Assembly: GCA_015493505.1 (NCBI GenBank)
Contig: WGDA01000153.1
Location: 1,962-65,961, forward strand
Length of the DNA stretch: 64,000 nucleotides
From: Pseudomonadota bacterium
Lineage (GTDB): Bacteria > Desulfobacterota > S145-22
Direction of reading: 5' to 3'
Part shown: positions 21,274 to 44,117 of the stretch, in pieces
Layout of the letters: every line of letters starts with the position of its first letter
Numbering within the stretch: position 1 is the first letter of the stretch
Notes under the pieces: generated by a model
What the model saw: only the letters and a program-made list of their open reading frames with translations
What the model was told of the DNA's origin: nothing
The model's database searches: none
Position numbers and translations under genes: made by a program

Positions 21274-22047
21274 TTACGCCGCCACCACGGGATTGGTGAG
21301 TGAGCCGATTCCTTCGATGGTGATGGTGACCACGTCTCCCGGTTTCATGGGGCCGATGCCGGACGTCGTGCCCGTGGCAATGACATCTCCCGGCAACAGC
21401 GTCATCACCTGGGTGATAAAGGAAACAATCTGCCTGACGGGAAAGATGAGCTGGGCGGTGGTGGTGGACTGGACCACAGTGCCGTTCAGTTCTGTTTTCA
21501 GGGCGAGGTTCGATGGATCCAGCCCCGTGACGAGAAAAGGGCCCATGGGCGCGAAGGTGTCGAAGGATTTAGCCCGCGTCCACTGTTTGTCCTTGTACTG
21601 CAGATCCCTCGCCGTGACATCGTTGAAACAGATATAGCCCGCGATCACGTCTTCGGCGTCTTTCTCTTCAATGTTTTTGGCGCGTTTTCCTATGACGATT
21701 CCCAGCTCGCCCTCGTAATCCACCCGCTGAGAGATGGGGGGAATCACAATGGGGTCGCCCGGTCCGATGACGGCCGTGGAAGGCTTCATGAAAAGGAGTG
21801 GTTCCTCCGGAAGCTTCAGACCCACTTCCTGGGCGTGATCCCGGTAATTGAGGCCCAGCGCGACGATCTTGCTCGGCCGCGCGGGGGGCAGGAGGCAGAC
21901 ATCCGCGAGGGGTAACGTCTTGTCTTCTTCCGCATATCCCGTGAAAGGATCTCCGGAGATGACCTGAATCTCCGAATCACCCATGACTTTGCCCCATCCC
22001 TGGGCTCCCCCGTATTCAAAACGACAAAATCTGCTGATTGCTGCCAT
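21274..22047 (-). CDS. Fumarylacetoacetate hydrolase (FAH)-family hydratase/decarboxylase
   Basis: 257 aa. The conserved FAH core includes YEGELGIVIGKRAKNI, SFDTFAPMGP and LPGDVIATGT. Confidence 0.8.
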   Translation of the reverse strand: MAAISRFCRFEYGGAQGWGKVMGDSEIQVISGDPFTGYAEEDKTLPLADVCLLPPARPSKIVALGLNYRDHAQEVGLKLPEEPLLFMKPSTAVIGPGDPIVIPPISQRVDYEGELGIVIGKRAKNIEEKDAEDVIAGYICFNDVTARDLQYKDKQWTRAKSFDTFAPMGPFLVTGLDPSNLALKTELNGTVVQSTTTAQLIFPVRQIVSFITQVMTLLPGDVIATGTTSGIGPMKPGDVVTITIEGIGSLTNPVVAA

Positions 22048-22187
22048 TCTTTACCCTCCGCCCGTGAAAATTACATGATGGCGGTGAAAAGTCAACTGTG
22101 GCGGCGATGAAAGGCATCCGAAAGGGATGCCGGGGAACATGATCGAAATTTTAATTTTTCAGGGGCAAATAGGGATGGAAATGGTTT

Positions 22188-22305
22188 TTCACGGGATTGC
22201 CCATTTTATCAAACGGGCAGGAAGGATTCTAGAGAAGGTCGTATCATTGTCACGGGTAAAAGCCTCTCCTTCCCCAAAGCACGGCTGAGGGTTTCGGCGC
22301 GGCGG
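22188..22305 (+). repeat. Direct repeat R1 (~118 bp), left boundary of the defense island
   Basis: About 94% identical to 34609-34726 in the same orientation, beginning ttcacgggattgcccattttatcaaacgggcaggaagg. Confidence 0.8.
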
Positions 22306-22381: not shown

Positions 22382-22873
22382 TCATTGTTCAATTGCTTTT
22401 GCTAATTCCATTGCCCTTCCAACTCGGTTTTCGAAAAGAAGGTCCCAGATGTCCAGGCATCGATTGGCAACTTGGCTGTTTCGCTCTCCTTGAGCCTGTT
22501 CATATAACCGCAGAAGAATGGATGATAAATCCGATGCAACAAGGGGATACCAAGAACCAGTGTCGCGGCTTTTTTCTTGGAGGGTTGTGGAAAACACTTC
22601 ACAGACAGCAAAGATCGCATCTGCGACAAGAATGAGGCTTCCTGCAAGATCTTTCAACGACCAGACGAAATGGCCAGGATCGTCTGCAAAGGCTTGTGAG
22701 CTGATATAATCCTTTACAAATGCCGCATATGCCGGATCGTTAATTAAATCTTTGTTTCTGAACATGCCGCGTAACTCGGCCCGGACCCCTTTATCAGGAT
22801 CATTCATGAACCTGCGTAAGAGCATTTGACATTGCTGGGAATATTTCTGGTCCTGCAGCAATGCTGCGGCCAC
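22382..22873 (-). CDS. Hypothetical protein, 163 aa, immediately downstream of and co-oriented with the STAND NTPase gene
   Basis: ORF with no recognisable motifs. A 15-nt gap separates it from the 1381-aa gene. Confidence 0.4.
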   Translation of the reverse strand: MAAALLQDQKYSQQCQMLLRRFMNDPDKGVRAELRGMFRNKDLINDPAYAAFVKDYISSQAFADDPGHFVWSLKDLAGSLILVADAIFAVCEVFSTTLQEKSRDTGSWYPLVASDLSSILLRLYEQAQGERNSQVANRCLDIWDLLFENRVGRAMELAKAIEQ

Positions 22874-22888
22874 GTTGGCGACACCCTT

Positions 22889-25800
22889 TCACTGCGGCAC
22901 GGTTCCCCGGCAGCACACGGCAAACTCTTTTTCAAAAAAACCGTGAAACAGCCACCGGGCCGTGATCTGCCTTGCCCCCTGAAAGGCCACCTCATCCAAG
23001 GAAGACATGGCCATTTGTTGAATAACCGAACCGACCTGATCGATATGGCTTGGAACGGTATAATCGAAAAAGCGTAAAGCCCGTGGAGATGCAGGGACTC
23101 GCAAATCATCCTTACACGCCTCGCAAAACCAATGGACAGCCAAATCTTTGTCAACATTCAGGATAGGTTCAATGGCCTCGATGGCCGCCATTCGCACCAC
23201 CGGGTGAGGGTCACGCACAAGGGACTCAATGCCGGGCCTGACCTGCTCCAGACAGCCGTTACGTTCCTGGAGCAATCGCCCGATTGCGCCAGCGGCCACG
23301 CCACGGACACAGTTGATGGTGTTCTGAAAAAGAACTTCGACCGTAGCCGTAGCTTCGTCACTATTCTTGTTACAATAGAGATTCAAATTGCCTGGTTCCA
23401 GGTCCGGATGGCTTCGGGCATAATGGACCATCCGGGCAATGGTCCTATCCGACCAGGATTCATCGGCCCTCTCCGCGATCAAGCGGCAGAACGACGTGGC
23501 GGTCTCCCGGTCGTCGCCGGATTGGTATCTTTGCAGCACGGCTTCAATGGTTTCAACCCTTGCCGGCTGCCAGGATGCCTTTTCAGATTCAGGCACTTCT
23601 TGTCCTGGCTGCTTTTCCCTCAATCCGTCCAGGATGGCGGAAATATATGCCGGATGGACGTCATCCGGGAACCGCAGGGCAAGCCGGCCGAAGCGTTCCG
23701 GGTACCTCTTGGCGATCCGGGCCAGGCTTGAGGCAAATTGACGAATGGATGTTGTGATCACATAATCCGGATCGACCTGAATCCATTTACCATGATCAGA
23801 CTCAGGGACTTTCTTACTTGTGACGATCTCAAGCCATGCCCGGTCACTGATTTTTTCAAGATTCGTATCGAGTTTGGAACCTATTGTACCACCGGAGATT
23901 CTGCCGCCCCTAAGAAACTGCTCTTTGGGGTAGTTCGCAAATTTTCGTTCCAACAAGCGGATCAAGGCTGCCGTTGCCGGACGAATTCTTTCGGTGTCGA
24001 GCGCAGGCAGCAGAAAATATTGGGTCTTCCCCCAATAATGGCCGAAAAATCCATCCCGCCAGCCTTTCAGATAATGTTTTGCATCTCGTTTTTCTTCCGG
24101 AGCATGGTAATGAACAATGGCCTCTTCAATCTGACGAAATAGTTTCTCGGAACAGTAAGGAGACAGCGCCTTGATGAGCCGCACCGCAGGCATCCACTCA
24201 GGCTCATGATAGCCGGACCCGAGCCGAAACCGGGCAGGATCATGGAGCAGCCAGGATATGCCTGTATCCGCGTGACTGGCAGGCAAATGGGCATAGGCCG
24301 CGATGATGATTTCTTGAACCACGGACGAAAAGCTCCTTTCAAGGAGATCAACCCGCGCTATCAGTTCATCGGGCTGTCCTGATGCCAGAACCTGTCCGGA
24401 CAGGACGAGCAGTTCGACAACACCTCTATCAATATCAGTTTCGTTCCTGGCAAACTGCTCATCCATCCACCTTCGTAACCTTGGATCGTAATAATCGGTC
24501 TGGATGTCAGTCAATCTCTCCACATGAGGCATCAGCAGGTCCCAGGTCTGGGACGGATACCTCTTCACTGCATCGTTCAACGCTTCAAGATCCCGGTCAT
24601 ACCACCGCTCCACCCGGCCTCTTCTGCTTCCGAAGGGCTCCTCGTCATCCACGTTCCAGATGGAAAGCACCGCCTCAATCAACCGGACAGCACGAAGAGG
24701 GTATTTGACACAAAGGCCTTTCCAGTCAACGAAATCCTTCACATATCCGAGCCGGACCAGTTGCAGCCGTAGCTCGAACATCTTTTCGGAATCATCCGCC
24801 TCCCTCCAGCAAAGCGTGTTCAAGACACGGGCAGGCCACTCACCGCCTTTGTCCACAAATGGCGCAAGGATTTCCGTCACCGAGTCGGGGATATGCTCTG
24901 CCACCGAGCGCAGCAGCCACAGGGCAAGGTTGATTTCGTGATCATTTGCCGATTCGAGCCATTTCGAGATGATCCCGGCGTCCAAAAGATAAGCTATCCA
25001 CGGATGGTGTCCCAAAAACACTGTCTCCAGAACATGGTCCTGCCAGTCGGGATCATCAAATAGTTCAAGGAGATAGCTGCCAAGCCCGCCGATAATCTGG
25101 TCCATCTGGCCAATCAGCTCAAGGACTAGGTGCTTGAGGTGAAAACGAACAGCATGTGATTCAAGGAGATCACGGATCGTGTCGAAAAAGACTTCCGGCG
25201 ATTCTTCCGCCAGTATAGCAAGGACCTGGCGCAGTTGCTCGCGCCGAAACAGCGACTGGTTCTGCCTCGGCCCCAGCCAGTCGATCACCGAACCGGTTCC
25301 TTGGTAGAGTTTCTGAAGCAGGCGCTCGGCAATCAGGTGGTCCAAATACCGTTGATGGCAAAAGCTTATTCTTCCCGCACCTTGCTGAAGAATGCCGAAT
25401 GAGATGAAGGCATCCCGCATAACCGGGTCTTTTGCCACCATCGTGGCAGGAGCCGAGAGTTCCCCTCGGCTTTCCATGTAATCGAGCAGTGGAGTCAGGA
25501 AGACATCCATTTGCGCAGCGGAGATTCCTGCTTGCTCCTCAAGAAGCTGGCGGCGGTTTTCCCAGAAGCGGTGCATCAGTTCGGTAGCGGTGCGAAACGT
25601 TGGCGCACTCCCTTCCTTTTTGATCTCCAGACAGATGGCCAGGTTCTGCGGACAGGAAAGAATGCGTTTTTGAGATTCGTTCAGGGCGGCAAAGGCATCG
25701 GGCCCGATGACCTCTTTCAACTGTTCTTCTGGAAACTCCCCAACCGGAACCTTGACAACACCCTGCTCGCTGCTGTCAGCGAATAGCTTCTTGATTTCCG

Positions 25801-27034
25801 GATCGTTTTCCAGATCAAAGGTGCGACAGGCAAAGACGATGATGTTCTGTTTCCCGGTGCGGCGAAGGAACCGAACCTGGCGGAGCAGTTCCTTGCACAC
25901 ATCCATGGCTGAGGAGGAATGGGAGGCGGTCCAGCGGATGGCGTCGAGTTGATCCAGGATGAGAACACATCTTCTGTCAACAGCCAAACCCGCCAGGCAA
26001 TAGGCGGGAGACTCGGGCAGGCCCAAATCATTTCCGAATTGTCTGGCTGTATTCTTGGGAATGCGCCTGTCAAGCCGAATGGGAAGAAAAGGGATACTCT
26101 TTTGGCGAAGATACTCCGCCAGTTCATATAAAACACCGCTCTTCCCGTTTCCCGCTGCCCCATGCACCACCACATCTCGCCCGTTGTTAATGGCTTCAAT
26201 AATCCGGGAGGTCGCCTCCCTGGGGATGATTTCGCTGTTTATCAGGCCGGGGCCGATGGAATCAGAGAACTGTTTTTGCAACTCTTCTACGGCAGGCGCA
26301 ATTCGGGTGTCGTGCTGGAGGCGCTTCGGATAGATTTTGTGACATTCGGCAAGGTGGGTCCGTAAATCATCCGCATAAATGGGTTTGCGGTATTTGTCTT
26401 CGTTTTCGACATAGGTAAGCAGAACAGCAATTGCGGTTTCAGGATCACCGGTCAGAAGGAAGCCGGCCCATGTCAGGAGATCATCCCATGTATTGCGGTC
26501 ATCGGGGAAAAGCTCAATACGGGTGCGCTTGAGATAGTCGAAGGCTTTTTCGAGGTCATCCTCTGTTTGGGGATTAAGGCCAACCGCGTCACAAAAGTCG
26601 TGGAAAATTTTACGACGCTCTTGGCTAATTGCCTGAATTTGAAATTGATAAAAATCCCTTGGGTTATCATCGGAGTTTCTGGCGCTTTCACAGGTATCCG
26701 CAAAGGTGCGCGCCGGGATTGTCGATATAAGTGTGAATTCATTGTTTGGAGCGCGATTCAGATGGTCCTTCAAGTGTCCCAGAATCCCCTTGTTGCGTAA
26801 TAGCGCTATGGACCAGGATGCGCGGCTGCCGCAACGGGCCTTGCACTGCTGCAACTGCCGGACACCATCCTTGTCCACAACCAGCAGATCAACCCCCTGC
26901 TCTTCCGGGCCGATAAGCTCCACAGTGACCGATTGAATCTCCTCGTTCAACAGCCGGAGAAGCTGCCTGGCAACCCACCGGCCCTCATAGCGGTTGCCGA
27001 GCTTTTCCGACATGCCGCCTGGTTCAAAGGCCAT
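22889..27034 (-). CDS. STAND-type P-loop NTPase with N-terminal Mrr-like PD-(D/E)xK nuclease domain and C-terminal HEAT/ARM-like repeats (Avs-like candidate antiviral protein)
   Basis: The N-terminus (VELIGPEEQGVDLLVVDKDG...QQCK) fits a D...(Q/E)xK nuclease core. Walker A is VVVHGAAGNGKSGV and Walker B is RCVLILDQLDAI. The long alpha-helical C-terminus contains HEAT-like PVVRMAAIEAIEPIL. It lies directly downstream of hsdM in the same orientation. Confidence 0.6.
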   Translation of the reverse strand: MAFEPGGMSEKLGNRYEGRWVARQLLRLLNEEIQSVTVELIGPEEQGVDLLVVDKDGVRQLQQCKARCGSRASWSIALLRNKGILGHLKDHLNRAPNNEFTLISTIPARTFADTCESARNSDDNPRDFYQFQIQAISQERRKIFHDFCDAVGLNPQTEDDLEKAFDYLKRTRIELFPDDRNTWDDLLTWAGFLLTGDPETAIAVLLTYVENEDKYRKPIYADDLRTHLAECHKIYPKRLQHDTRIAPAVEELQKQFSDSIGPGLINSEIIPREATSRIIEAINNGRDVVVHGAAGNGKSGVLYELAEYLRQKSIPFLPIRLDRRIPKNTARQFGNDLGLPESPAYCLAGLAVDRRCVLILDQLDAIRWTASHSSSAMDVCKELLRQVRFLRRTGKQNIIVFACRTFDLENDPEIKKLFADSSEQGVVKVPVGEFPEEQLKEVIGPDAFAALNESQKRILSCPQNLAICLEIKKEGSAPTFRTATELMHRFWENRRQLLEEQAGISAAQMDVFLTPLLDYMESRGELSAPATMVAKDPVMRDAFISFGILQQGAGRISFCHQRYLDHLIAERLLQKLYQGTGSVIDWLGPRQNQSLFRREQLRQVLAILAEESPEVFFDTIRDLLESHAVRFHLKHLVLELIGQMDQIIGGLGSYLLELFDDPDWQDHVLETVFLGHHPWIAYLLDAGIISKWLESANDHEINLALWLLRSVAEHIPDSVTEILAPFVDKGGEWPARVLNTLCWREADDSEKMFELRLQLVRLGYVKDFVDWKGLCVKYPLRAVRLIEAVLSIWNVDDEEPFGSRRGRVERWYDRDLEALNDAVKRYPSQTWDLLMPHVERLTDIQTDYYDPRLRRWMDEQFARNETDIDRGVVELLVLSGQVLASGQPDELIARVDLLERSFSSVVQEIIIAAYAHLPASHADTGISWLLHDPARFRLGSGYHEPEWMPAVRLIKALSPYCSEKLFRQIEEAIVHYHAPEEKRDAKHYLKGWRDGFFGHYWGKTQYFLLPALDTERIRPATAALIRLLERKFANYPKEQFLRGGRISGGTIGSKLDTNLEKISDRAWLEIVTSKKVPESDHGKWIQVDPDYVITTSIRQFASSLARIAKRYPERFGRLALRFPDDVHPAYISAILDGLREKQPGQEVPESEKASWQPARVETIEAVLQRYQSGDDRETATSFCRLIAERADESWSDRTIARMVHYARSHPDLEPGNLNLYCNKNSDEATATVEVLFQNTINCVRGVAAGAIGRLLQERNGCLEQVRPGIESLVRDPHPVVRMAAIEAIEPILNVDKDLAVHWFCEACKDDLRVPASPRALRFFDYTVPSHIDQVGSVIQQMAMSSLDEVAFQGARQITARWLFHGFFEKEFAVCCRGTVPQ

Positions 27035-27051: not shown

Positions 27052-28536
27052 TCAGATCTGTTTTTCAAGTTCGATTGTAATCTCCCGAAAACTTTGCAGG
27101 GCTGCCTCTATACTCTCAATAATCTCTTCGGCCAGTACGTCCGGTTCCGGCAGGTTATCCAGATCAGTCAGGTTGGCGTCCTTTAGCCACAGGATATCGA
27201 GGCTGGCCTTGTCGCGGCTGATTATTTCCTCATAACTGAATTTCCGCCAGCGGCCCCCCGGGTTTTTCTCCGGGTGCCAGGTTTCCGTGCGTTTGTAGCG
27301 ATTGAGCGGATTATAGAGTTCGATGAACTCCTTAAGGTCTTCGTAGCGAAGGGGCTTTTTTTTCAGTGTGTGATGGATATTGGTTCGGTAATCATAGAAC
27401 CAGACCTCCTTGGTCTGTGGTTCTTTTGCCGCAGGACGATTGTTAAAGAAGAGCACATTGGCCTTGACCCCATGGGCGTAAAAGATGCCGGTGGGCAGGC
27501 GCAAAATGGTATGGAGATCCGTGGTCTCCAATAGTTTGCGGCGCACGGTTTCACCGGCTCCGCCTTCAAAAAGGACGTTATCCGGCACCACAATGGCAGC
27601 CTTGCCGGTGGTTTTCAGCATGGAGCGCACGTGTTGAACGAAATTAAGCTGTTTGTTGGAGGTAGTTACCCAGAAATCCTGGCGGTTATAGGTGAACTCT
27701 TCCTTTTCCGCCTTGCCTTCACCGTTGGTAATGGTGATGGAGCTTTTCTTGCCAAATGGCGGATTGGTGAGCACATAGTCAAAGGTCTGCTTCGGTGGGG
27801 CGATCAAGGCGTCGGTGGGATCAATGGACGGCTCAGCGTCAATATCACCAATGCCGTGCAAAAGCATGTTCATCAGCGCCAGGCGGCGGGTATTGGCGAC
27901 AATTTCGTTGCCAAAAAAGGTTTTGAACTTCAGAAATTCTTTCTGGGCCCTGTCCAGCTTGTAGTTTTTTGAGATAAACTCATAAGCACCGAGAAAAAAA
28001 CCGCCTGTGCCGCAAGCTGGATCGGCAATGGTCTTGCCGGCCTCGGGCCGCACACATTCCACCATCGCCTTGATCAGTGGCCTGGGTGTAAAATATTGCC
28101 CCGCGCCGGATTTCACGTCCTCCGCGTTTTTGGCAAGCAGTCCCTCGTAGATCTCGCCTTTGACATCGGCACCCATCATCGTCCATTGCTCTTTATCGAT
28201 CATGTCGATGATGCGATAGAGCATGGCCGGGTCCTGTATCTTGTTCTGGGCCTTGGTGAATATCTGACCCAGCATTCCCTTCTGCCGGCCAAGTTCACGC
28301 AATAACCGTACATAAAAGGCTTCCAGCTCCGCTCCCCGCCGCTTTTTCAGCTCCGGCCAGCAATATTCCGTCGGAATGCCGATATCCCGGTTATATGGAG
28401 GTTTGCCGTATTCGTCAGCCATCTTCAGAAAAAGCAGATAGGTGAGCTGTTCCAGGTAGTCGCCATAGCTCACACCCACGTCACGAAGGACATGGCAGTA
28501 ACTCCATATTTTTTGAACAATATTTGCTGTGTTCAT
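27052..28536 (-). CDS. hsdM: Type I restriction-modification system methyltransferase subunit
   Basis: N6-adenine methyltransferase motifs (LTNPPFG, and ADPACGTGGF for SAM binding) in a 494-aa protein. Confidence 0.92.
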   Translation of the reverse strand: MNTANIVQKIWSYCHVLRDVGVSYGDYLEQLTYLLFLKMADEYGKPPYNRDIGIPTEYCWPELKKRRGAELEAFYVRLLRELGRQKGMLGQIFTKAQNKIQDPAMLYRIIDMIDKEQWTMMGADVKGEIYEGLLAKNAEDVKSGAGQYFTPRPLIKAMVECVRPEAGKTIADPACGTGGFFLGAYEFISKNYKLDRAQKEFLKFKTFFGNEIVANTRRLALMNMLLHGIGDIDAEPSIDPTDALIAPPKQTFDYVLTNPPFGKKSSITITNGEGKAEKEEFTYNRQDFWVTTSNKQLNFVQHVRSMLKTTGKAAIVVPDNVLFEGGAGETVRRKLLETTDLHTILRLPTGIFYAHGVKANVLFFNNRPAAKEPQTKEVWFYDYRTNIHHTLKKKPLRYEDLKEFIELYNPLNRYKRTETWHPEKNPGGRWRKFSYEEIISRDKASLDILWLKDANLTDLDNLPEPDVLAEEIIESIEAALQSFREITIELEKQI

Positions 28537-29981
28537 GGCGTGTGCCCCTCGATTTCGCGCGTTAGATGTTTCCCCTTTTCCGTCAGGCGGTACTTCTGCA
28601 AACGGCTGTTTGGCTTTTCAGGGTAGGTGTATTCTATCAATCCCTGTTCAAGCAAATTCTTAATCATGCGTTTGAAAGCGCCTGTTTTTGTCTCAAGCCC
28701 CAGGGCCTTTGCCATCTCTGAAGACGAAAGAGGGGTATTTGAAAGGAGCGCCAAGAGGGTTTTCCACTGGGCCCCTGACTGGGCCCTCAACTGGGCCCTC
28801 GACTGGGGCTTCAACTGTGCCGATTTTTTAACGGGAATTGCCTTCGCCAATGGGAAGAGGAAACGTACTCGCAGGCCCAGTTCCCTGATGGAAGGTTCCG
28901 GGAACCCCAGGGCCGCCGTTTGACTGAAGATGCGTGGCACGCCGCTACCCCACTGTTCTATGAGATTCAATTCGCGAAAGACGCGGGCGATGACTGGATT
29001 ACGGATTTTGGAGATTCCTTGTTTCATGTCGTCGACCGTTATGCCGGGAGGCAGGATGCCGGGGTTTTCAATCTCAATGCGGTCATCGAAAAAAGCTATT
29101 CGGACGGGGCCGCCCCGCTGGGACCAGTCGGCGTGTACCAAGGCGTTGATAACCGCTTCCCGAAGCGGTTCCAGTGGAATGCTCCAAACATCCTTGCGCC
29201 GAATATTGGAGAAGTCCGCGCCGCGCATGGCGTGTTTTTTTAGAAACAGCATGATGCTGTCCACGGATTGCGGCAGAGGCTCCTCAATCTCAATATGGTC
29301 GAAAATTTCTGATTTGTCTGTGCCGATGAAGCGTCCGCATTGGACCCAGCAGTCTGGGAAATGAAAGGTCCGGTCACGGCCGAAAAGCAGCACGCCACCC
29401 TTGGAAGGGACGGTTTTGCCCTGATTCTGAACAAGGATTTTAAGGGTGCGCAGCGCGCGATCATTTAGCTCCCTGATTCCGGAAAACACGTGGCGGGCGG
29501 CATCCAGGTTAAGGCCGTTGATGGAAAGCTCCGGCATGGGCATTTCGTCAAAAGAAACCCCTTCCACTGAGCGGCGCAATTCTGCAATCAGCTCCTTGTC
29601 CGCCTGCCTATTGCTGGAGCCCAGGCGAACGTAAACTCCGTTTTCCGGGCCTTCCGCTTTCAGCCAATGGGGACGCAGATTGCTGAGGAATACCTCGACC
29701 ACGAGCAGGGTTTTCCCTTCAACAGTAACAAGCTCGATATTGGGAACCAGGCGTGGAGAGATAGAGTCTGCGATTAAGTTGCTCAGGCGTTCTTCTTCGT
29801 CCAGCGGGTCTTCCACGCCGACAACTTCACGGGTCTTGTCCCGCACTCCGATGATAACTCTTCCTCCGGCAGTGTTGGCGAAGGCGGTTAGCGTTTTCAG
29901 CAGGTTTTGTGGCGAGGACAGGTCTCGTTTGAACTCAAGGGTTTTGCCCTCCGGAGCCTTGAGCAGCTCAGTGATTTTCAT
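28533..29981 (-). CDS. Schlafen-like AlbA_2/HATPase_c_4 putative DNA-binding protein (COG2865 family) embedded in the hsd operon
   Basis: 482 aa with an N-terminal AlbA_2-like divergent ATPase domain (TAFANTAGGRVIIGV) and a C-terminal wHTH. It overlaps hsdS and hsdM by a few nt on each side. Confidence 0.6.
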   Translation of the reverse strand: MKITELLKAPEGKTLEFKRDLSSPQNLLKTLTAFANTAGGRVIIGVRDKTREVVGVEDPLDEEERLSNLIADSISPRLVPNIELVTVEGKTLLVVEVFLSNLRPHWLKAEGPENGVYVRLGSSNRQADKELIAELRRSVEGVSFDEMPMPELSINGLNLDAARHVFSGIRELNDRALRTLKILVQNQGKTVPSKGGVLLFGRDRTFHFPDCWVQCGRFIGTDKSEIFDHIEIEEPLPQSVDSIMLFLKKHAMRGADFSNIRRKDVWSIPLEPLREAVINALVHADWSQRGGPVRIAFFDDRIEIENPGILPPGITVDDMKQGISKIRNPVIARVFRELNLIEQWGSGVPRIFSQTAALGFPEPSIRELGLRVRFLFPLAKAIPVKKSAQLKPQSRAQLRAQSGAQWKTLLALLSNTPLSSSEMAKALGLETKTGAFKRMIKNLLEQGLIEYTYPEKPNSRLQKYRLTEKGKHLTREIEGHTP

Positions 29982-31542
29982 TTTTTCTCCTTCGGGATTT
30001 TTTGGATGGTCGTGTGGAGGCCTCCCGCTCCGCCTTGATGCGTTTCAGGAGTTCCGATGCAGGCGGGTCGTTAGGGTCCTGAGGCATGAGTTTGCCGGAA
30101 AAGGCCTTTTTGAGGATGGCCTGACGGAGAAGTTCGGCTTGTTTGAGGGCGTTGTCGATGGTTCCCTTTATATGTTTAGCAATTGTCAAATGAGTTTCCA
30201 ACTTAAGCAAGATATGTTCTTGTTCAGCACGTGAACAAATCGGTACTGGAACATGCTGAATATCTCTTAAGTAAATTGCCTGTTGTGCGGTAGCTCCAGA
30301 TATCGACACAAGGCGTTTGTTAATTGATGGAGATTTTAGGCTGTAAAGCAAATATGTACTAATTACGTGTGAATAAGTTTTCAATAGAATTACACTTCCT
30401 AATAAACAAAATTTTTCATTAGTATTAACAATGCACATTCTTCCAACAGTTGCCCCGCGACTGACAATAAGAATATCCCCGAATTCTGGATTACAGCGAA
30501 GCAGTGCTTTTCTGGCAGTTTCCTCAGATATAAACAAAGGGTCGGAAAACGAAACACCTTTATCTTGGATATCTTTTGCCGATAGAAAATATACTCCACT
30601 TTTTTCAATTTTAGGCCGAAAATGCTCACCGTCTGTAATCTTGAGTGACAAGTCATTGAGTTTAGTCCACCCCCACCCCTCGGGCAATTCCGGGAGTTCG
30701 GCCAGTTCTTTTTCGGTGAGCGGGGGCAGTTCCTTGGGTTTGCGGGGTTTGGTTGGTTTTTTGCCGGGTTTGCCCTGGGCCTCCCACTCCTTGATAGCCT
30801 GTTTCCATTCCTCCAGTTGCCGCTGATAGCGTTTCTCCCGCTCGGTTTTGGCGCGTGCCAGCAGTTCTTCGGCGGATTCCAGTTCGTCCGCGTGTTCCTC
30901 GCGCCACTGTTCGGTGAGTCGGCCGTCAAAGGCGGATTTGAGCAGGGACTGGCGGTATAGCTCCAGTTTCTCTTTCACCTTTTTCAGCTCTGCCACGGCC
31001 TTGTCCAGTTCGGAGAACAGCCGCTCGATTTTGGCCACGATGCGGTGTTGTTCGGGAAGGGGGGCTAAAAGAATTGGAAATTTTCTGGTTTCTGCCAGCG
31101 GAAGAGTTAATCGACCTGAACCTGTCGCCCTATCATGTGATAGTCGATAAATCCACGGCGTATTCATATATAATTCTAAATACTTAGGCAGAACAATCTC
31201 TTTAATTGGCTTTAGCAATCCTAATCCAACAAACAAGGAGACTTGTTCATGAAAATCAATGCGTTTAGCAAATCCTAAAGTACCAATTCTCGGAAAAACT
31301 ATGTCGTCAAACTCAGGGTCGCATCGTTTACAGAGTTCTGCATGATCTTTTTCAGAAATATATTTTTCATAAGCACTGAAATCGATAGGCTTAAACGGAC
31401 GGATATTTTTAATTGAAATGAACCGAATCCCTTTTGATTGATACTTGGGTGTTTTATGTGTGCCATCGGTAATTTTAGAGCAAACATCTTCCAATGCAGC
31501 TTGCACCCAACCTTTGGGGAGTTCCGTTAGAAAACTACTCAT
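29968..31542 (-). CDS. hsdS: Type I RM specificity subunit
   Basis: Two target-recognition domains separated by a long K/P/E-rich coiled-coil spacer, with the conserved LPPLxEQ-type motif PLPEQHRIVAKIE. The protein is 524 aa. Confidence 0.88.
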   Translation of the reverse strand: MSSFLTELPKGWVQAALEDVCSKITDGTHKTPKYQSKGIRFISIKNIRPFKPIDFSAYEKYISEKDHAELCKRCDPEFDDIVFPRIGTLGFAKRIDFHEQVSLFVGLGLLKPIKEIVLPKYLELYMNTPWIYRLSHDRATGSGRLTLPLAETRKFPILLAPLPEQHRIVAKIERLFSELDKAVAELKKVKEKLELYRQSLLKSAFDGRLTEQWREEHADELESAEELLARAKTEREKRYQRQLEEWKQAIKEWEAQGKPGKKPTKPRKPKELPPLTEKELAELPELPEGWGWTKLNDLSLKITDGEHFRPKIEKSGVYFLSAKDIQDKGVSFSDPLFISEETARKALLRCNPEFGDILIVSRGATVGRMCIVNTNEKFCLLGSVILLKTYSHVISTYLLYSLKSPSINKRLVSISGATAQQAIYLRDIQHVPVPICSRAEQEHILLKLETHLTIAKHIKGTIDNALKQAELLRQAILKKAFSGKLMPQDPNDPPASELLKRIKAEREASTRPSKKSRRRKNENH

Positions 31543-34304
31543 GCCGCAAGCGCCTCGTTCACCTCGTCAATGATCCGGTCCATGTCCGCGCCAAAGAGCT
31601 GCCACATCTTTCCCAGCCCCCCGTGGGCGTCAAACGGCGCCAGGTCCAGGTCGTTCCGTTCCAGGTGATAGGAGGCGGCGATATGGTCGCGGATCATGCG
31701 CAGCCATGCCATCTGTTCCTCGGTGAATTTCCGGCCTGCGCCTTCGTGCCTCTTGAATATCCATTCCTTGAAATTGCGGTTCACGGTCTCGGAAAAAGGG
31801 GTCAGCGTACTGTCAATCCCCGCCACCCTGCGGATCAGGGAGACCAGGGCGGTGAGTTCGCTGACAGGTGATTTGCCCTTGACATCATCCAGCATGGCGT
31901 AGGCGTCCCAAACCCGCAACGGGGCAAGGCGCGGACGGTCGGCGCGCAGTTTTCCCAGAACCTCCCGCAGCATCTGATAGGTGACGTCCCGCCGGCGGTA
32001 GGGCTGGTCATAAAAGATGGTGAGCGCCGTGAGTTTGTCCTTATTTTCCCGTAGAAAATCGGCAAACTCGCGAGTAAGCTTTTCCCCGTTTTCCCTGGCA
32101 TTGCCGTCCCATTCCGCCCGAAGGAGCCGGTCAATGTTCTGGTTGTCGATGACCTGTTCATGGATACGGCGGATGTTTTCCAGCATCTCGTTCAGCTCAC
32201 CAGTGAAGACGGTGGTGGCCTGTTTCGCCAGGATGGAAGCAACCTGTTTACGCTGATCTTCGTCTGGTTCAACCTTTATTGACAGTTTAAACTGCTCTCG
32301 GGCCTGCCGTTCTATCCTGTCCGGATCAACCGCCTCCAGCAGCTCCCGGGCGATACGGGTCAGGGGCTTGCCCGCCTTTTGGGCGACCTGATCCCGCTCT
32401 TTGTCGTCAAGCTGCTGATTGAGGCGCGCCAGGCGATTCGCCAGGGAGGTCAGGGTGTCTTCATCGTCCGCGCCCATGAGCACGGACATGAGCAGGTCCT
32501 TGAAGGAGACCGAGGGCTTGCGTTCCAGAGGGCGGCTGTCGGTTTTGAGGGATTTGGTCACGCCCACGGCGTCCACGATGACGAAATGGTTTTTGGGTCT
32601 GATGGCAGACGGGGTCACCTTCTTGAGGTCGTCATGGCTCAAGACTCGTGTACCGCGCCCCTTCATTTGCTCGAAATAGTTGCGGGATCGGACATCTCGC
32701 ATGAAGAGGAGGCATTCCAGCGGCTTGACGTCGGTGCCGGTGGCAATCATGTCCACGGTGACCGCGATACGGGGGGCGTATTCGTTGCGGAACTGGGCGA
32801 GGACCGATTTGGGGTCTTCCTCGGACCGGTAAGTAACCTTTTTGCAGAAGGCGTTGCCTTCGTCGAACACCTCGCGAACGATTCGGATGATGTCATCGGC
32901 GTGGCTGTCGTTCTTGGCGAATATCAGGGTCTTGGGCACTTCTTTCCGGTTGGGAAAGATGTCCGGCAGCTTTTCCTTGAAGGTACGGATTACCTTACGG
33001 ATCTGACTGGGGTTGACCACGTCGCGGTCGAGTTGGCTGCCGCCGTATTTCAGGTCTTCATCCAGGAGTTCCCAGCGCTTTTTGCGCGTGAGCTTGTCGC
33101 GTTTGGGCACGAGGCGCTTGGCTTTGAGTTCCGCGCCTTTCTGGGTGATTTCGGTTTCGATGGTATAGACATCGTAGCCCACGTTGACGCCGTCGGCCAC
33201 GGCCTGTTCATGGGTGTATTCGCTGACCACGTTTTCATGGAAAAAGGCGAAGGTGCGCTTGTCCGGTGTGGCAGTCAGGCCGATGAGAAAGGCGTCGAAA
33301 TAATCCAACACCTGTTGCCAGAGGTTATAAATGGATCGGTGGCATTCATCGATGACGATGAAATCGAAAAACTCGATGGGGACTTTGGGGTTGTAGACCA
33401 CCGGCAAGGGTTCCTTTTGGGTGAGGCGGTGCTCGGCCGGGTTTTCCAGCTCCGCGGCCTCGTCCAGGGGTTCGCCTTTGAGGATGGAGTAGAGACGCTG
33501 GATGGTCGAGATGACCACCTGGCTGGTGTCGGCGATGTAATTTGAAGAGAGGCGTTGCACGTTGTACAATTCGGTGAACTTGCGGTTGCCGTCGTTTGGC
33601 AGGTACGCCATGAACTCCTGTTCCGCCTGTTCCCCCAGGTTTTTGGTGTCCACCAGGAAGAGAACGCGTTTGGCGTCGGCGTATTTGAGGAGGCGGTAGA
33701 TAGAGGTGATGGCGGTGAATGTCTTGCCCGCGCCGGTTGCCATCTGAATAAGCGCCCTGGGCCGGCCGGCCGCGAATGATTTCTCCAGGCGGGTGATGGC
33801 TTCCACCTGCGCCTTGCGCAACCCTTTGGTGGATAGAGGCGGCACGTTTCGCAGACGGGCACGCAGCGTCAAAGGTTGCCGCGTCCATTCCCCCAAGGTT
33901 TGTGGTTGGTGAAACCAGAATACTTCACGTGACCGGGGTTTGGGGTCACGCTCGTCTCGGAACAGTGTGATCTCGCCAGTGCTTTCATAAAGCATGGGAG
34001 GAGCTTGGCTGTTTTTAACCCATTTCAACCTGGCCCCGGCATATTTGCCGGTCTGGTCCGCGACCACGCTGATTTTTTGGCCCATCTCCGGGCGTTTGGC
34101 CTCGATGATGCCGACGGGTTCGCGGTCGACGAAGAGCACGTAATCTGCTGGGCCACGGTCCGTAGGATATTCCCGCACTGCAATGCCTTTGGCTCTGCCA
34201 AAGTCGATTTTGCTCTTATCCTGCACCGACCAGCCGGCCTCGGTAAGCATTCGATCAATGCGGTCACGGGCGATCTGTTCCGGCGTCTGATTGGGCTGGC
34301 TCAA
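31539..34304 (-). CDS. hsdR: Type I RM restriction subunit (SF2 helicase with N-terminal PD-(D/E)xK nuclease)
   Basis: N-terminus ADYVLFVDREPVGIIEAKR, helicase motif I TGAGKT, and a DEAH-like DECH box, in a 921-aa protein. Confidence 0.92.
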   Translation of the reverse strand: MSQPNQTPEQIARDRIDRMLTEAGWSVQDKSKIDFGRAKGIAVREYPTDRGPADYVLFVDREPVGIIEAKRPEMGQKISVVADQTGKYAGARLKWVKNSQAPPMLYESTGEITLFRDERDPKPRSREVFWFHQPQTLGEWTRQPLTLRARLRNVPPLSTKGLRKAQVEAITRLEKSFAAGRPRALIQMATGAGKTFTAITSIYRLLKYADAKRVLFLVDTKNLGEQAEQEFMAYLPNDGNRKFTELYNVQRLSSNYIADTSQVVISTIQRLYSILKGEPLDEAAELENPAEHRLTQKEPLPVVYNPKVPIEFFDFIVIDECHRSIYNLWQQVLDYFDAFLIGLTATPDKRTFAFFHENVVSEYTHEQAVADGVNVGYDVYTIETEITQKGAELKAKRLVPKRDKLTRKKRWELLDEDLKYGGSQLDRDVVNPSQIRKVIRTFKEKLPDIFPNRKEVPKTLIFAKNDSHADDIIRIVREVFDEGNAFCKKVTYRSEEDPKSVLAQFRNEYAPRIAVTVDMIATGTDVKPLECLLFMRDVRSRNYFEQMKGRGTRVLSHDDLKKVTPSAIRPKNHFVIVDAVGVTKSLKTDSRPLERKPSVSFKDLLMSVLMGADDEDTLTSLANRLARLNQQLDDKERDQVAQKAGKPLTRIARELLEAVDPDRIERQAREQFKLSIKVEPDEDQRKQVASILAKQATTVFTGELNEMLENIRRIHEQVIDNQNIDRLLRAEWDGNARENGEKLTREFADFLRENKDKLTALTIFYDQPYRRRDVTYQMLREVLGKLRADRPRLAPLRVWDAYAMLDDVKGKSPVSELTALVSLIRRVAGIDSTLTPFSETVNRNFKEWIFKRHEGAGRKFTEEQMAWLRMIRDHIAASYHLERNDLDLAPFDAHGGLGKMWQLFGADMDRIIDEVNEALAA

Positions 34305-34608
34305 AGGTAATTCCCCAGATCGGACATATTATTTGCCATCGTGCTCGCAAAATGAGGTTTTACGACTTGAGTTTTTCACCATAAGGTAAAATCCATTCAA
34401 TATGAGCATTTTGGTTGTTGCCGATATTCCATAAAAACTATACCTCATTTGCCGCGTATTGTACAAGAATAATTTGAATAAAATTCGAATAGTTGAAACC
34501 GGTATCAATTGATCGATTCTTGATGGAGCAAAATGGGAGGGAGCATGGTGGGCGTATTAGCTCTCTCATTTATTTTCTTTATAAAAGAGGTAAAGCAGGT
34601 TGTGAGAT

Positions 34609-34726
34609 TTCACGGGATTGCCCATTTTATCAAACGGGCAGGAAGGATTTTAAAGAAGGTCGTATCAATGTCACGGGTAAAAGCCTCTCCTTTCCCAAAG
34701 CACGGCTGGGGGTTTCGGCGCGGCAG
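34609..34726 (+). repeat. Direct repeat R2 (~118 bp), right boundary of the defense island
   Basis: Matches 22188-22305 at about 94% identity. Confidence 0.8.
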
Positions 34727-35013
34727 ATCAAAGGTGAGTAGTTCCCCGCCTGCCTGTCCCTGCTCGCGCGCAGACAGGGGGCGGGAAGAAGTCAATCCTG
34801 AAGGGGTATCTGCCTGAGAAGGGGAAGAAGCGTCGGTTAGGAGGGAGGAGGGGGATGAAAATGGAAAGCCCCTGGCTCAAAACCATGGGCCGGATGCAGT
34901 ATCGTTTGCAGGGGATGGTTCCCTTTCGCATAGACAGGGGGGGCTTTTATATTGGCTCAACACAATATTGTCTGATTGGCATCGATGATCCAGAATACGC
35001 AATTTCCGTTCTG

Positions 35014-35325
35014 TTATATCCCGTAGGCATCATCATGAGGCCCGAGCAGAACGAACTTGATGGTTTTGTCCGGTGTTTCCCGGCAATCCGAGCAGGCCAC
35101 AACGACATTGTCGCCTTTTTTCCGGCACACTTCGCAATAGAGATAGATGATGATGAAATTGCGCTTCACCGGACATGAATAAAACCCCTGCCACTTACCC
35201 TTCAACGGTTCGCCGATGGCAATCGGGTTTTCAATAATCATGTCAACCTTTTTTTTGACCAGTTTTTTTATCGAGGCGTGCTTTTTAACAGCCTTCAGGA
35301 AAGCGACCTCAAATCTGGTTTCCAT
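35014..35325 (-). CDS. Type II toxin-antitoxin toxin, RelE/ParE family
   Basis: 103 aa with a RelE-like core (KGKWQGFYSCPVKRNFIIIY). Its start overlaps the stop of the upstream RHH gene in an ATGA arrangement. Confidence 0.6.
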   Translation of the reverse strand: METRFEVAFLKAVKKHASIKKLVKKKVDMIIENPIAIGEPLKGKWQGFYSCPVKRNFIIIYLYCEVCRKKGDNVVVACSDCRETPDKTIKFVLLGPHDDAYGI

Positions 35326-35582
35326 CAGTCCCCGAAGACCTCATCGTATGAATGCCACTGTGCTGTGCCATTGCGCAGTTTGGCCTGAGCGTCTTCCATG
35401 GCCCGCTGAAAAGCCGGATGAGCGAGAATTTTTTCCATATATTCGCCCTCGACACGCCGCTTCAGGGCAAGCAGGTATTGCGTTACCATGTCCGCAACCG
35501 ACGTGCGATTTTCGGCGGCAAAGATCTTGGCGAACTCGGCAAGATCCTGGTCGAGACTTACATTGAGACGGGTTTTGGGCAT
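35325..35582 (-). CDS. Ribbon-helix-helix antitoxin
   Basis: 85 aa. N-terminal PKTRLNVSLDQDLAEFAKIF is RHH-like (beta strand followed by a helix). It lies upstream of the RelE-like gene. Confidence 0.55.
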   Translation of the reverse strand: MPKTRLNVSLDQDLAEFAKIFAAENRTSVADMVTQYLLALKRRVEGEYMEKILAHPAFQRAMEDAQAKLRNGTAQWHSYDEVFGD

Positions 35583-35867: not shown

Positions 35868-36222
35868 TGGTGGAGGCGGCGGGAATCGAACCCGCGTCCG
35901 AGAGTCTTCGGCATGAGTCTCTACATGCTTATCCGACCTATTGCATTCGCCGATCAATTGCCGGTCGGCAGGCACCTTGATCGGCATAGCCTGAAGGTCT
36001 TAGCCGCTTTCCGTTAGGCAGCGAAAAACGGTGCAACCTGTCTCGATGACGCCTCGTCAGGGTGTGACAGGTTGACACCCTGGGAGACGTGGCGGTCAAT
36101 TAAGCCGCCAGAGCGTACTCGTAGTCGTTCGCATTTATGTTTATTTCCACCAGATTCCGGGCTGGCAGACCCCGGCATGCAACCCATACCTCAACTACTC
36201 CCGTCGAGCCCTTTTCGCCCCC
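35868..36222 (-). ncRNA. ssrA: tmRNA (SsrA), tag peptide ANDYEYALAA
   Basis: The minus-strand 5' end is GGGGGCGAAAAGGGCUCGACGGG and the 3' end is GGACGCGGGUUCGAUUCCCGCCGCCUCCACCA (tRNA-Ala-like acceptor with T-arm). An internal ORF reads GCG AAC GAC UAC GAG UAC GCU CUG GCG GCU UAA. Confidence 0.9.
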
Positions 36223-36677
36223 AGGAGAGCACGCTGTGCCTCACGCTCCAAGGTTTTCCTCCGGAGCGTTTCCCGTTTGTCAAAAAGCCTTTTGCCCTTC
36301 GCGAGGGCCAATTCCACCTTTACCTTACCACGTTTAAAATATAAGCGCAAAGGAATGAGAGTCAATCCTTTTTCCTTAGTTTTTCCAAGGAGTTTTCTTA
36401 TCTCCTGTTTCTTGAGCAAAAGCTTCCGGTCCCTGAGCGGGGCGTGGTTGTTATAGGTGGCGAAGGGATAGGGGCTGATGTGCGTGCCGATGAGGAACAC
36501 TTCCCCGTTTTTGATGCGGGCGTAGCTGTCCTTCAGATTGGCCTTTCCCATCCGCAGGGATTTGACTTCCGAGCCCTTCAGGGCGATACCCGCCTCGTAG
36601 GTTTCCACGATCTCATAGTCATGCCGCGCCTTTTTGTTCTGGCAGATGACCTTGATGTTTTCATCCGGTTTTCCCAT
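36195..36677 (-). CDS. smpB: SsrA-binding protein
   Basis: [42 protein letters not shown] followed by a K/R-rich C-terminal tail. The last 9 codons plus the stop overlap the tmRNA 5' end. Confidence 0.9.
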
Positions 36678-36789
36678 GGTTTGAGAATCATACCACGGAC
36701 GTTGGAAAAGACAACTCGCGGGAGGGGCATAAATTGACAAAATGGGGGACAGAGGGTATGAAATAGCAAACATCTCCGGGAGGTGGCCT

Positions 36790-37446
36790 ATGAAAATCAA
36801 ATGGTATGGACACGCGTCTTTTCTGATTACATCCGATTCCGGCACGAGGATTATCACCGATCCGTATGAGCCGGGCGCCTACGATGGCGGGATTGCCTAT
36901 AAACCGATCGAGGATGCCGCGGAGATCGTGACGGTATCTCATGATCACGCGGACCACAATTATGTTCAGGGGGTTCAGGGATCACCCGCTGTCGTGAAAG
37001 GGCCGGGTGTTCATGAAGCCCATGGGATTTCTTTTAAAGGGGTGGCCACGTATCATGACCCGTCTAAGGGAAAGGAACGGGGAGAAAACACCATGTTCGT
37101 CTTTACCGTGGATGGCGTAACCGTCTGTCACGCGGGGGACCTGGGCCACGTGCTGCCGAAGGAGAAAGTCGAGGAACTGGGCCCGATCGATGTTCTACTG
37201 CTTCCCATAGGCGGGGTATTTACCCTTGACCCCAAAGAAGCGACGGAGGTGATGAACCTGCTGAATCCGAAGATCCTGATTCCCATGCATTACAAAACCC
37301 CCGGCTGCGGGTTTCCCATTGCCAGCGTGGAGGAGTTTCTTGAAGGCAAGCCCTCCGTCGAGCGGGCGGGAACCTCTGAGATCAGTCTTTCACGGGATTC
37401 CCTTCCGGCCCCTGTGCGTGTCACGGTTCTCGATCCCGCGAATTGA
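36790..37446 (+). CDS. MBL-fold metallo-hydrolase
   Basis: HxHxDH motif (SHDHADHN) in a protein of about 218 aa. Start is set at the internal Met after the RBS gggagg. Confidence 0.75.
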
Positions 37447-42434: not shown

Positions 42435-42573
42435 TACGCTCCTTTTTCAGATTTTCTTGAAATTTTTCCTCGTAAATGGTAGAGATGCTCATCAGGAAAG
42501 GCGATGAAGTCCGCCTCTAAACGCCAGCAGGCTGATGACTTCTTGCCGTGAAAAAGCGGGAAAGGAGGCCGTC

Positions 42574-43859: not shown

Positions 43860-43935
43860 GCTGGCGTAGCTCAATCGGTAGAGCAGCTGATTTGTAATCA
43901 GCAGGTTGCGGGTTCGAGTCCCATCGCCAGCTCCA
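43860..43935 (+). tRNA. tRNA-Thr (anticodon UGU)
   Basis: Cloverleaf with GTTCGAGTC T-arm and anticodon loop tttgtaa. Confidence 0.85.
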
Positions 43936-43951
43936 TAAGAGGGAGTTTCAT

Positions 43952-44036
<85 letters not shown>

Positions 44037-44040
44037 CGAC

Positions 44041-44117
44041 GCGGGAATAGCTCAGTTGGCTAGAGCATCAGCCTTCCAAGCTGAGGGTCGCGGGTTCGAG
44101 TCCCGTTTCCCGCTCCA
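44041..44117 (+). tRNA. tRNA-Gly (anticodon UCC)
   Basis: Anticodon loop cttccaa with a GGTTCGAGTCC T-arm. Confidence 0.85.

What the first reader, a model, noticed from the sequence alone, without database searches (positions are those of the whole stretch)
22382..27034. Candidate antiviral module: 1381-aa STAND-like NTPase with Mrr-type nuclease head plus 163-aa partner ORF, coupled to a type I RM operon
The large protein combines three parts: (i) an N-terminal restriction-endonuclease-fold segment with the D...(Q)xK pattern (VDLLVVDKDG...QQCK), (ii) a P-loop NTPase core (Walker A GAAGNGKSG, Walker B LILDQLD), and (iii) a ~900-aa alpha-helical HEAT/ARM-like C-terminus. This is the effector-NTPase-sensor architecture of Avs/STAND antiviral proteins. 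It sits 17 nt downstream of hsdM in the same orientation and is followed after 15 nt by an uncharacterised 163-aa ORF. Both lie inside a repeat-bounded island. I cannot assign either protein to a named family from sequence alone, so this may be an undescribed two-gene defense system or a divergent Avs.
Basis: partly seen in the sequence, partly recalled or inferred. Interest (0 to 1): 0.8.

Follow-up and report, generated by a model that had tools for sequence, protein, structure and literature searches.

The report
Truncated Avs7-like antiviral STAND gene
The supposed two-gene defence module is one gene for a large phage-sensing immune protein, a distant relative of the recently characterised Avs7. 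A single premature stop codon cuts it in two, so the "partner" is only its severed tail.

Summary
The ORFs are real and the architecture was read mostly correctly: PD-(D/E)xK nuclease head, P-loop STAND NTPase, about 950 aa of HEAT/ARM-like repeats. The 163-aa "partner" is not a gene. It lies in the same frame as the 1381-aa ORF, separated only by one TGA (22889-22891) and five codons. About 100 of the 120 best homologues are single proteins of 1540-1556 aa that cover both ORFs. At the TGA position 38 of 39 have Arg, most often CGA, so this is a C-to-T nonsense change. A second, non-identical assembly carries the same stop.

The family is large: 1440 clusters at 50% identity, and 268 relatives in GTDB species genomes across many phyla. 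It has no conserved neighbour. It is homologous almost end to end to Salmonella Avs7 (PDB 9N00; hhalign E 3e-45, ours 6-1544 = Avs7 4-1519). Only the sensor N-lobe has diverged beyond recognition. The nuclease is Cap4-type, not Mrr-type.

Position at the 3' end of an RM operon recurs in about 8% of loci but is not obligatory. The 12.4-kb island bounded by 117-nt repeats is confirmed.

Verdict: a divergent, probably inactivated member of a known kind of antiviral receptor. Interest is low.

The parts
22382..27034 (-). Single reading frame of an Avs7-like antiviral STAND gene: 1549 sense codons plus one internal TGA and the terminal TGA
   Evidence: One frame with one internal stop. Homologues of 1540-1556 aa cover 100% of the read-through translation. 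hhalign to Avs7 covers ours 6-1544 = Avs7 4-1519, E 3.4e-45.
26300..27034 (-). N-terminal Cap4-type PD-(D/E)xK nuclease effector domain (aa ~1-245). Candidate catalytic residues are E39, D49 and Q63-x-K65 (QCK at 26840-26848).
25235..26227 (-). STAND/NACHT-like NTPase module (NBD, helical domain and winged helix; aa ~270-600). Walker A is at 26138-26161, Walker B at 25943-25966; R404 and WHD His560 are conserved.
22892..25234 (-). HEAT/ARM-like alpha-solenoid sensor, aa 601-1381: the N-lobe and most of the C-lobe, up to the premature stop
22889..22891 (-). In-frame TGA nonsense codon replacing a conserved Arg codon
   Evidence: 38 of 39 aligned homologues have R here. CGA is the commonest codon at this site in relatives, 22 of 51. 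The same stop is present in an independent assembly, L080. TGA is an ordinary stop in this genome.
22382..22888 (-). Severed C-terminal tail of the sensor: five codons (KGVAN) plus the '163-aa ORF'. It corresponds to Avs7 residues ~1352-1519, including the C-terminal helix.
   Evidence: The frame is continuous. Identity to homologues (80.7%) equals that between intact homologues. The tail is collinear with the Avs7 C-terminus inside the significant C-lobe alignment; the tail alone gives E 0.0019.
27052..34304 (-). Upstream co-oriented type I RM operon: hsdR 31539-34304, hsdS 29968-31542, AlbA_2/HATPase_c_4/wHTH gene 28533-29981, hsdM 27052-28536
   Evidence: Pfam and PADLOC hits. This is context, not part of the Avs gene.
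22187..22303 (.). Left copy of the 117-nt direct repeat bounding the 12.4-kb island
   Evidence: 96% identical to 34608-34724.
34608..34724 (.). Right copy of the 117-nt direct repeat bounding the island
   Evidence: Island GC is 0.48-0.57 against 0.59-0.60 in the left flank.

Best explanation
Window 22382-27034 (- strand) is one gene of a widespread, single-gene family of antiviral STAND NTPases of about 1547 aa. The family is a deep-branching relative of Avs7.

By homology with Salmonella Avs7 (inferred, not shown here), the intact protein would work as follows:
1. It rests as an autoinhibited, ADP-bound monomer.
2. Its bilobed HEAT-like sensor clamps a phage protein. For SeAvs7 this is the major capsid protein, with EF-Tu as a cofactor.
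3. ATP-dependent tetramerisation then assembles the N-terminal Cap4-type nuclease.
4. The nuclease cuts dsDNA and aborts the infection.

In this genome a C-to-T change turned a conserved Arg codon (probably CGA) into TGA. The annotated product therefore stops at residue 1381 and lacks the last 168 residues of the C-lobe. The '163-aa ORF' is that orphaned tail. The allele is most likely a recent loss-of-function (pseudogene) variant.

The gene sits at the 3' end of a type I RM operon inside a 12.4-kb horizontally acquired island. That is a recurrent but non-obligatory location for this family.
For: Shown:
- One frame with a single TGA.
- About 100 of the 120 best homologues are single proteins of 1540-1556 aa covering 100% of the read-through.
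- Arg at the stop position in 38 of 39; CGA in 22 of 51.
- The same stop in an assembly that differs at 7 of 10,146 nt.
- Tail identity is not degraded.
- No conserved neighbour in 79 loci: the best non-self cluster occurs in 8 loci.
- The sensor family has 1440 clusters at 50% identity, and nearly all of the best 150 share this architecture.
- The profile hits SeAvs7 9N00/9N01/9YIX at E 5.5e-24.
- hhalign: full length E 3.4e-45, sensor only E 1.3e-14, C-lobe only E 5.2e-16.
- BLASTP of Avs7 gives collinear sensor HSPs down to E 8e-10.
- Fold matches to NACHT, Avs3, Avs4 and Cap4.
- All catalytic and nucleotide-binding residues are intact.

Taken from the literature: the Avs7 mechanism and the role of the C-lobe and C-terminal helix in autoinhibition and activation (PMC13581612).
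Against: - No experiment exists on this family, and its ligand is unknown.
- The sensor N-lobe (aa ~645-1000) shows no detectable similarity to Avs7, so specificity for the capsid protein or for EF-Tu cannot be transferred.
- The solved SeAvs7 structure is not in the fold libraries (they end 2026-04-08), so the sensor fold could not be compared directly.
- Loss of function of the truncated allele is inferred, not shown. The tail is undecayed and a weak AAGGG lies 10 nt before its GTG, so a split but working protein or low-level read-through is not excluded.
- The assemblies that share the stop may come from the same population.
Confidence: 0.85

Rival explanations
1. A genuine two-gene defence system: the 1381-aa STAND protein works with a separately encoded 163-aa partner.
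For: Two ORFs are called mechanically, and the second has a GTG start 15 nt after the first. A weak AAGGG lies 10 nt upstream of that GTG.
Against: The two ORFs share one frame, with a single stop between them. Homologues are one protein. Arg is conserved at the stop position. No PADLOC, Pfam or NCBIfam family matches the tail. No conserved downstream neighbour exists. NCBI gene calling does not call the ORF.
Confidence: 0.03
2. A naturally split or leaky allele that still works. Either the tail is translated by re-initiation at GTG 22873 and re-associates with the truncated solenoid, or UGA read-through yields a little full-length protein, so immunity is kept, perhaps attenuated.
For: The tail shows no extra divergence. 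The stop is shared by at least two assemblies. One relative (L055) is split at almost the same place, 1390 + 146 aa. Lee et al. mention split proteins that carry the Avs7 sensor.
Against: Splits in relatives are scattered, in 10 of 75 loci at different positions and including an IS insertion, as expected of decay. The L055 split is a frameshift. No SECIS or other recoding RNA reached Rfam thresholds in the window. Arg, not Cys/Sec or Trp, is the conserved residue.
Confidence: 0.1
3. Sequencing or assembly artefact: the true sequence has CGA and the gene is intact.
For: The source appears to be a metagenome-assembled genome, and the change is a single base.
Against: The identical 1381-aa product is recorded on three contigs. 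The one retrieved (GCA_027055435.1) differs from the window at 7 positions elsewhere, so it is not the same assembly. Substitution errors at consensus level are rare.
Confidence: 0.07
4. A housekeeping or regulatory STAND/AAA+ ATPase with HEAT repeats, unrelated to defence.
For: Many neighbours in relatives are ordinary metabolic genes. Pfam gives only weak AAA_16 and HEAT hits.
Against: It carries a Cap4-type nuclease effector with an invariant active site. It is homologous end to end with experimentally validated Avs7. Its only PADLOC hit is PDC-M54A, a defence candidate. Its distribution is patchy across many phyla. RM genes, DUF4145, AlbA_2, IS elements and resolvases recur as neighbours. 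It sits in a low-GC island.
Confidence: 0.03

Closest known systems
Avs7 (antiviral STAND 7; Salmonella enterica SeAvs7, PDB 9N00/9N01/9YIX; Lee et al., Nature 2026, PMC13581612)
   Same: Same order and size of parts: Cap4 PD-(D/E)xK nuclease with a QCK motif, STAND NTPase with winged-helix His, and an alpha-solenoid sensor of about 950 aa (1547 aa against 1523 aa). Homology is almost end to end (hhalign E 3.4e-45, ours 6-1544 = Avs7 4-1519). The C-lobe alone gives E 5.2e-16. Both are single-gene systems.
   Different: Identity is only about 21%. The sensor N-lobe (aa ~645-1000) is not recognisably similar. The hosts differ: mostly Desulfobacterota, Planctomycetota, Chloroflexota and Bacillota, against Gammaproteobacteria and Betaproteobacteria for the SeAvs7 clade. 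The ligand is untested. This copy is truncated.
PADLOC candidate PDC-M54A
   Same: It is the only PADLOC family hit. The match covers the NTPase/WHD region at equivalent positions in profiles of about 1620-1660 aa (E 1.6e-20, aa 196-573 = profile 224-610). Canonical Avs7 also hits it weakly, so all three belong to one superfamily.
   Different: The match is partial. The nuclease and most of the sensor are not covered. PDC-M54 is listed as a multi-gene candidate, whereas this family has no conserved partner. No paper mentioning PDC-M54 was found.
Avs3 / Avs4 (AVAST; PDB 8DGC, 8DGF)
   Different: No sequence-level hit to the PADLOC Avs models. Their sensors are TPR arrays that recognise terminase or portal. 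EcAvs4's nuclease is Mrr-like (from my own knowledge).
Dsr1 (defence-associated sirtuin 1)
   Same: It is reported to share the Avs7 sensor (PMC13581612), so it may share the C-lobe with this family.
   Different: It has a SIR2 effector and no STAND NTPase. No PADLOC Dsr1 hit to this protein was found. The relation was not tested directly.

Membership tests
Avs (antiviral STAND) in general | Tripartite architecture: N-terminal effector, central STAND NTPase (NBD-HD-WHD) and a large C-terminal repeat sensor | tested here: met
Avs (antiviral STAND) in general | Intact Walker A, Walker B, sensor Arg and WHD His | tested here: met
   G295/G297/K298, D361/D364, R404 and H560 are invariant in 61 sequences, including the window copy.
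Avs (antiviral STAND) in general | Protection against phage; activation by a phage protein | not testable with these tools
   Requires cloning of an intact homologue and phage or trigger assays.
Avs7 | NTPase and WHD homologous to SeAvs7 | tested here: met
   hmmsearch of the family profile against PDB sequences gives 9n00_A at E 5.5e-24, profile 49-646 = chain 46-627. hhalign Prob 99-100%.
Avs7 | Avs7-type bilobed sensor (families in Lee et al. are defined by sensor sequence/structure cluster) | tested here: inconclusive
   The C-lobe half is homologous (ours 1002-1544 = Avs7 980-1519, E 1.3e-14; BLASTP HSP E 8e-10). The N-lobe (645-1000) gives no signal. The SeAvs7 structure is absent from the fold libraries, and the paper's supplementary tables are not held.
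Avs7 | [quoted passage not shown] | tested here: inconclusive
   Intact homologues align to the very end of Avs7 (position 1519 of 1524) within the significant alignment. The last 45 aa alone give z 2.6, with 5 of 300 shuffles reaching the score. In the window copy this helix lies beyond the premature stop.
Avs7 | Senses the phage major capsid protein and recruits EF-Tu | not testable with these tools
   Known for SeAvs7 only.
Cap4/DUF4297 nuclease effector | PD-(D/E)xK fold with D...(E/Q)xK | tested here: met
   No Pfam Mrr hit. The best nuclease fold matches are Cap4 and LmuA, and no Mrr protein is in the list.
Two-gene system (large protein + 163-aa partner) | A separate, conserved partner gene | tested here: not met
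   The ORF is an in-frame continuation. It is fused in homologues. No conserved downstream gene exists.
Type I RM-linked module | Conserved linkage to hsdR/M/S | tested here: not met
   An RM gene is directly upstream and co-oriented in 5 of 59 loci with at least 3 kb of upstream sequence. Three are type I and two are Eco57I-type. L083 adds one more. The arrangement recurs but is a minority.

The most novel reading that the evidence does not exclude
This deep-branching Avs7-like clade, with an N-lobe unrecognisably different from SeAvs7, senses a different phage (or non-phage) ligand. In addition, the in-frame UGA allele is not dead: it is a tolerated split or leaky form, by re-initiation or read-through, that tunes the level of a toxic receptor riding on a type I RM operon.
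Probability: 0.1. Interest if true: 0.5.

Novelty: new member of a known kind. Interest (0 to 1): 0.22.

Why it matters
The result removes a false lead: there is no new two-gene system here. It places a large, unannotated protein family next to Avs7, whose mechanism was solved in 2026. The family comprises 1440 clusters at 50% identity, is labelled 'hypothetical protein' wherever a source names it, and has no Pfam or NCBIfam model and only a partial PADLOC match.

That gives annotators a name and gives experimenters a hypothesis. The family shares the Avs7 chassis and C-lobe but has a diverged N-lobe, so its trigger may differ. It is found mainly in anaerobes and Planctomycetota, whose phages are little studied.

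The case also shows that an ORF lying a multiple of three bases after a stop codon should be checked for frame continuity before it is called a partner.

Tried and rejected
- Pfam, NCBIfam and PADLOC on both ORFs gave only weak AAA_16/HEAT hits and a partial PDC-M54A match, and nothing for the tail.
- phmmer of a homologue against PDB sequences found nothing useful. Only the family profile found SeAvs7.
- A literature search for PDC-M54 returned 0 papers.
- Supplementary tables of Lee et al. are not held, so clade membership could not be looked up.
The tail is therefore not in any model.
- The afdb50 fold library was unavailable.
- The PDB fold libraries end 2026-04-08 and lack SeAvs7, so the sensor gave only generic HEAT/ARM hits.
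- A first tblastn with the window's hsdM suggested RM linkage in only 2 of 79 loci. This was an undercount, corrected by iterative HMMs and Pfam.
- The first hhalign runs, with a narrow family profile, gave only E 1.4e-5 for the sensor. A more diverse profile was needed.
- Searching with the N-terminal SeAvs7 fragment returned only truncated proteins. A full-length Avs7 came from a viral contig and from a sensor query.
- A search for the repeat core in JGI metagenomes, to find an empty site, gave 0 hits.
- Alternative genetic code was rejected: TGA ends 13 of 30 long ORFs, and rpoB and rpoC are intact.
- Selenocysteine was rejected: Arg is conserved at the site and Rfam found no SECIS.
Full report
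**1. Observation**

On the minus strand there is a 1381-aa ORF (22889..27034) and a 163-aa GTG ORF (22382..22873). The large ORF starts 17 nt after hsdM (27052..28536). The upstream genes are an AlbA_2/HATPase_c_4/wHTH gene, hsdS and hsdR, all co-oriented.

In an alignment of the window sequence with 60 homologues, these residues are invariant:
- E17, E39, D49, Q63 and K65;
- G295, G297 and K298;
- D361, Q362 and D364;
- R404 and H560.

**2. The "partner" is the tail of the same gene**

The 15-nt gap between the two ORFs is five in-frame codons. The sequence reads ...GTVPQ-TGA-KGVAN-VAAALLQ... in one frame.
- A search with the read-through translation (1550 positions) found 769 homologues. About 100 of the best 120 are single proteins of 1540-1556 aa that cover 100% of the query, up to 85% identical.
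- At the TGA position 38 of 39 aligned homologues have Arg.
- In related loci the codon there is CGA in 22 of 51 cases. A single C-to-T transition therefore explains the stop.
- The identical 1381-aa product is on record on three contigs. The one retrieved (GCA_027055435.1, locus L080) differs from the window at 7 of 10,146 positions, none in this gene. The stop is thus probably real and shared within a population.
- NCBI's gene calls there leave the 163-aa stretch uncalled.
- The tail is 80.7% identical to its closest intact homologue. Intact homologues show 79.5-82.7% to one another in the same region, so the tail has not decayed and the mutation is recent.
- TGA is an ordinary stop in this genome: it ends 13 of 30 long ORFs, and rpoB and rpoC are intact.

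**3. What the protein is**

AlphaFold2 models built from the family alignment are confident: aa 1-640, pLDDT 89.2; aa 561-1381, pLDDT 87.1.
- The C-terminal model matches only generic HEAT/ARM solenoids.
- Pfam and NCBIfam have no model for the family. PADLOC gives only a partial hit to candidate PDC-M54A.

A profile of the family hits one solved protein, 9N00/9N01/9YIX, at E 5.5e-24. Those entries are Salmonella enterica Avs7 (Lee et al., Nature 2026, PMC13581612).

I recovered full-length Avs7 sequences and compared profiles. With a diverse family profile of 83 sequences, hhalign gives:
- Full length: Prob 100%, E 3.4e-45, ours 6-1544 = Avs7 4-1519.
- Sensor only: E 1.3e-14, ours 1002-1544 = Avs7 980-1519.
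- C-lobe only: E 5.2e-16.
- Tail only (1380-1546): E 0.0019, collinear.
- N-lobe only (645-1000): no signal.

Plain BLASTP of Avs7 against family representatives also gives collinear sensor HSPs, the best at E 8e-10.

The family is therefore a deep-branching relative of Avs7. It has the same chassis and C-lobe and a diverged N-lobe. The 163-aa ORF corresponds to Avs7 residues ~1352-1519. That stretch includes the C-terminal helix which, in SeAvs7, clashes with the NBD on ligand binding and helps release autoinhibition.

**4. Family size and context**

A sensor-only phmmer search of 1.84 billion representatives gives 1440 clusters at E <= 1e-3 and 375 at E <= 1e-30. Nearly all of the best 150 have the same length and layout.

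GTDB species genomes hold 268 relatives, in Desulfobacterota, Planctomycetota, Chloroflexota, Bacillota, Nitrospirota and a few Gammaproteobacteria.

In 79 fetched loci no neighbour is conserved: the best non-self cluster occurs in 8 loci. This is a single-gene system.

An RM gene lies directly upstream, co-oriented and 50-150 nt away, in 5 of 59 informative loci:
- type I hsdS or hsdR in L008, L010 and L069;
- Eco57I-type methyltransferases in L018 and L074.

The 81%-identical metagenomic relative sits 27 nt after hsdR of a different type I operon. Docking at the 3' end of RM operons is therefore recurrent but not obligatory.

Other repeated upstream neighbours are DUF4145 (four Planctomycetota loci) and AlbA_2-HATPase_c_4-wHTH genes.

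About 10 of 75 loci have the gene broken at various places, and a Nostoc plasmid copy of an Avs7 relative is interrupted by an IS630. Decay of such genes is common.

**5. Island**

Direct repeats of 117 nt (96% identical) at 22187-22303 and 34608-34724 bracket exactly the RM operon plus this gene. GC is lower inside the block. tmRNA and smpB lie 1.1 kb beyond the right repeat. The block contains no integrase.

**6. Mechanism (inferred by homology)**

The intact protein would follow the SeAvs7 pathway described:
1. An autoinhibited monomer.
2. The sensor clamps a phage protein.
3. ATP-dependent tetramerisation.
4. Cap4 nuclease cleavage of dsDNA and abortive infection.

The ligand of this clade is unknown because the N-lobe differs. 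The window allele keeps the nuclease, the NTPase and most of the sensor but lacks the last 168 residues. It is most likely non-functional. A functional split or read-through form is a minority possibility.

**7. Verdict**

- This is a new member of a known kind, in a truncated copy. Interest is low.

Noticed in passing
window 22187-22303 and 34608-34724: The 117-nt direct repeats that bound the 12.4-kb island each carry the same promoter-like element on the minus strand (GTGACA-16 nt-TAAAAT / TAGAAT). One copy sits upstream of hsdR and the other upstream of the FAA-hydrolase gene (21274-22047). The insertion seems to have duplicated a promoter region. No integrase lies inside the island.
   Followed up: partly
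window 35868-36222 (-) and 36195-36857 (-): tmRNA (ssrA, 188 bits) and smpB lie 1.1 kb from the right repeat. tmRNA genes are classic island integration sites, but the repeat is not derived from ssrA. Two small ORFs without Pfam hits (34855-35178 and 35216-35566, + strand) fill the gap.
   Followed up: partly
window 28533-29981 (-): A 482-aa AlbA_2/Schlafen + HATPase_c_4 + winged-helix gene is embedded between hsdS and hsdM. It overlaps hsdM by 4 nt and hsdS by 14 nt. Genes of the same type lie directly upstream of the Avs7-like gene in L016 and L051, and nearby in L009, L024 and L052.
   Followed up: partly
L030:9327-9995, L032:9315-9995, L035:9128-9994, L038:9344-9979: In four Planctomycetota genomes a DUF4145 protein of 212-289 aa is encoded immediately upstream (median gap about 3 nt) and co-oriented with the Avs7-like gene. 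It may be a clade-specific accessory gene.
   Followed up: partly
L055:10001-14574: A Syntrophobacteraceae relative is split into 1390 + 146 aa by a frameshift, almost at the same place as the window's stop (1381 + 163). With about 10 split loci this could be chance (roughly 15%). It may also mark a tolerated break point.
   Followed up: no
L081 (Nostoc sp. MS1 plasmid pNSMS101, NZ_AP023442.1 94031-99856): A gene about 32% identical to the SeAvs7 N-terminal fragment is interrupted by an IS630 transposase (829-aa and 708-aa halves). Related cyanobacterial plasmid copies are annotated as 'caspase family protein', which suggests effector swapping on the same chassis.
   Followed up: no
L082:5866-10440 (IMGVR_UViG_2657245000_000009): A canonical full-length Avs7 (1524 aa, 76% identical to SeAvs7 in the N-terminal part) is carried on a contig classed as viral in IMG/VR.
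   Followed up: no
window 42491-42551 (+) and 43860-45736: There is a fluoride riboswitch (43.9 bits) upstream of the ORF at 42535-43404. A cluster of five tRNA genes surrounds a 396-aa ORF at 44292-45482, and long ORFs of rpoB/rpoC size follow at 48990-57364. This is ordinary core-genome context on the right side of the window.
   Followed up: no
P0476 (1741 aa), P0503 (1668 aa), P0469 (1626 aa): A few representatives carry the same sensor 150-200 residues further from the N-terminus. They may have a larger or different N-terminal effector, like the effector diversity reported for Avs7.
   Followed up: no
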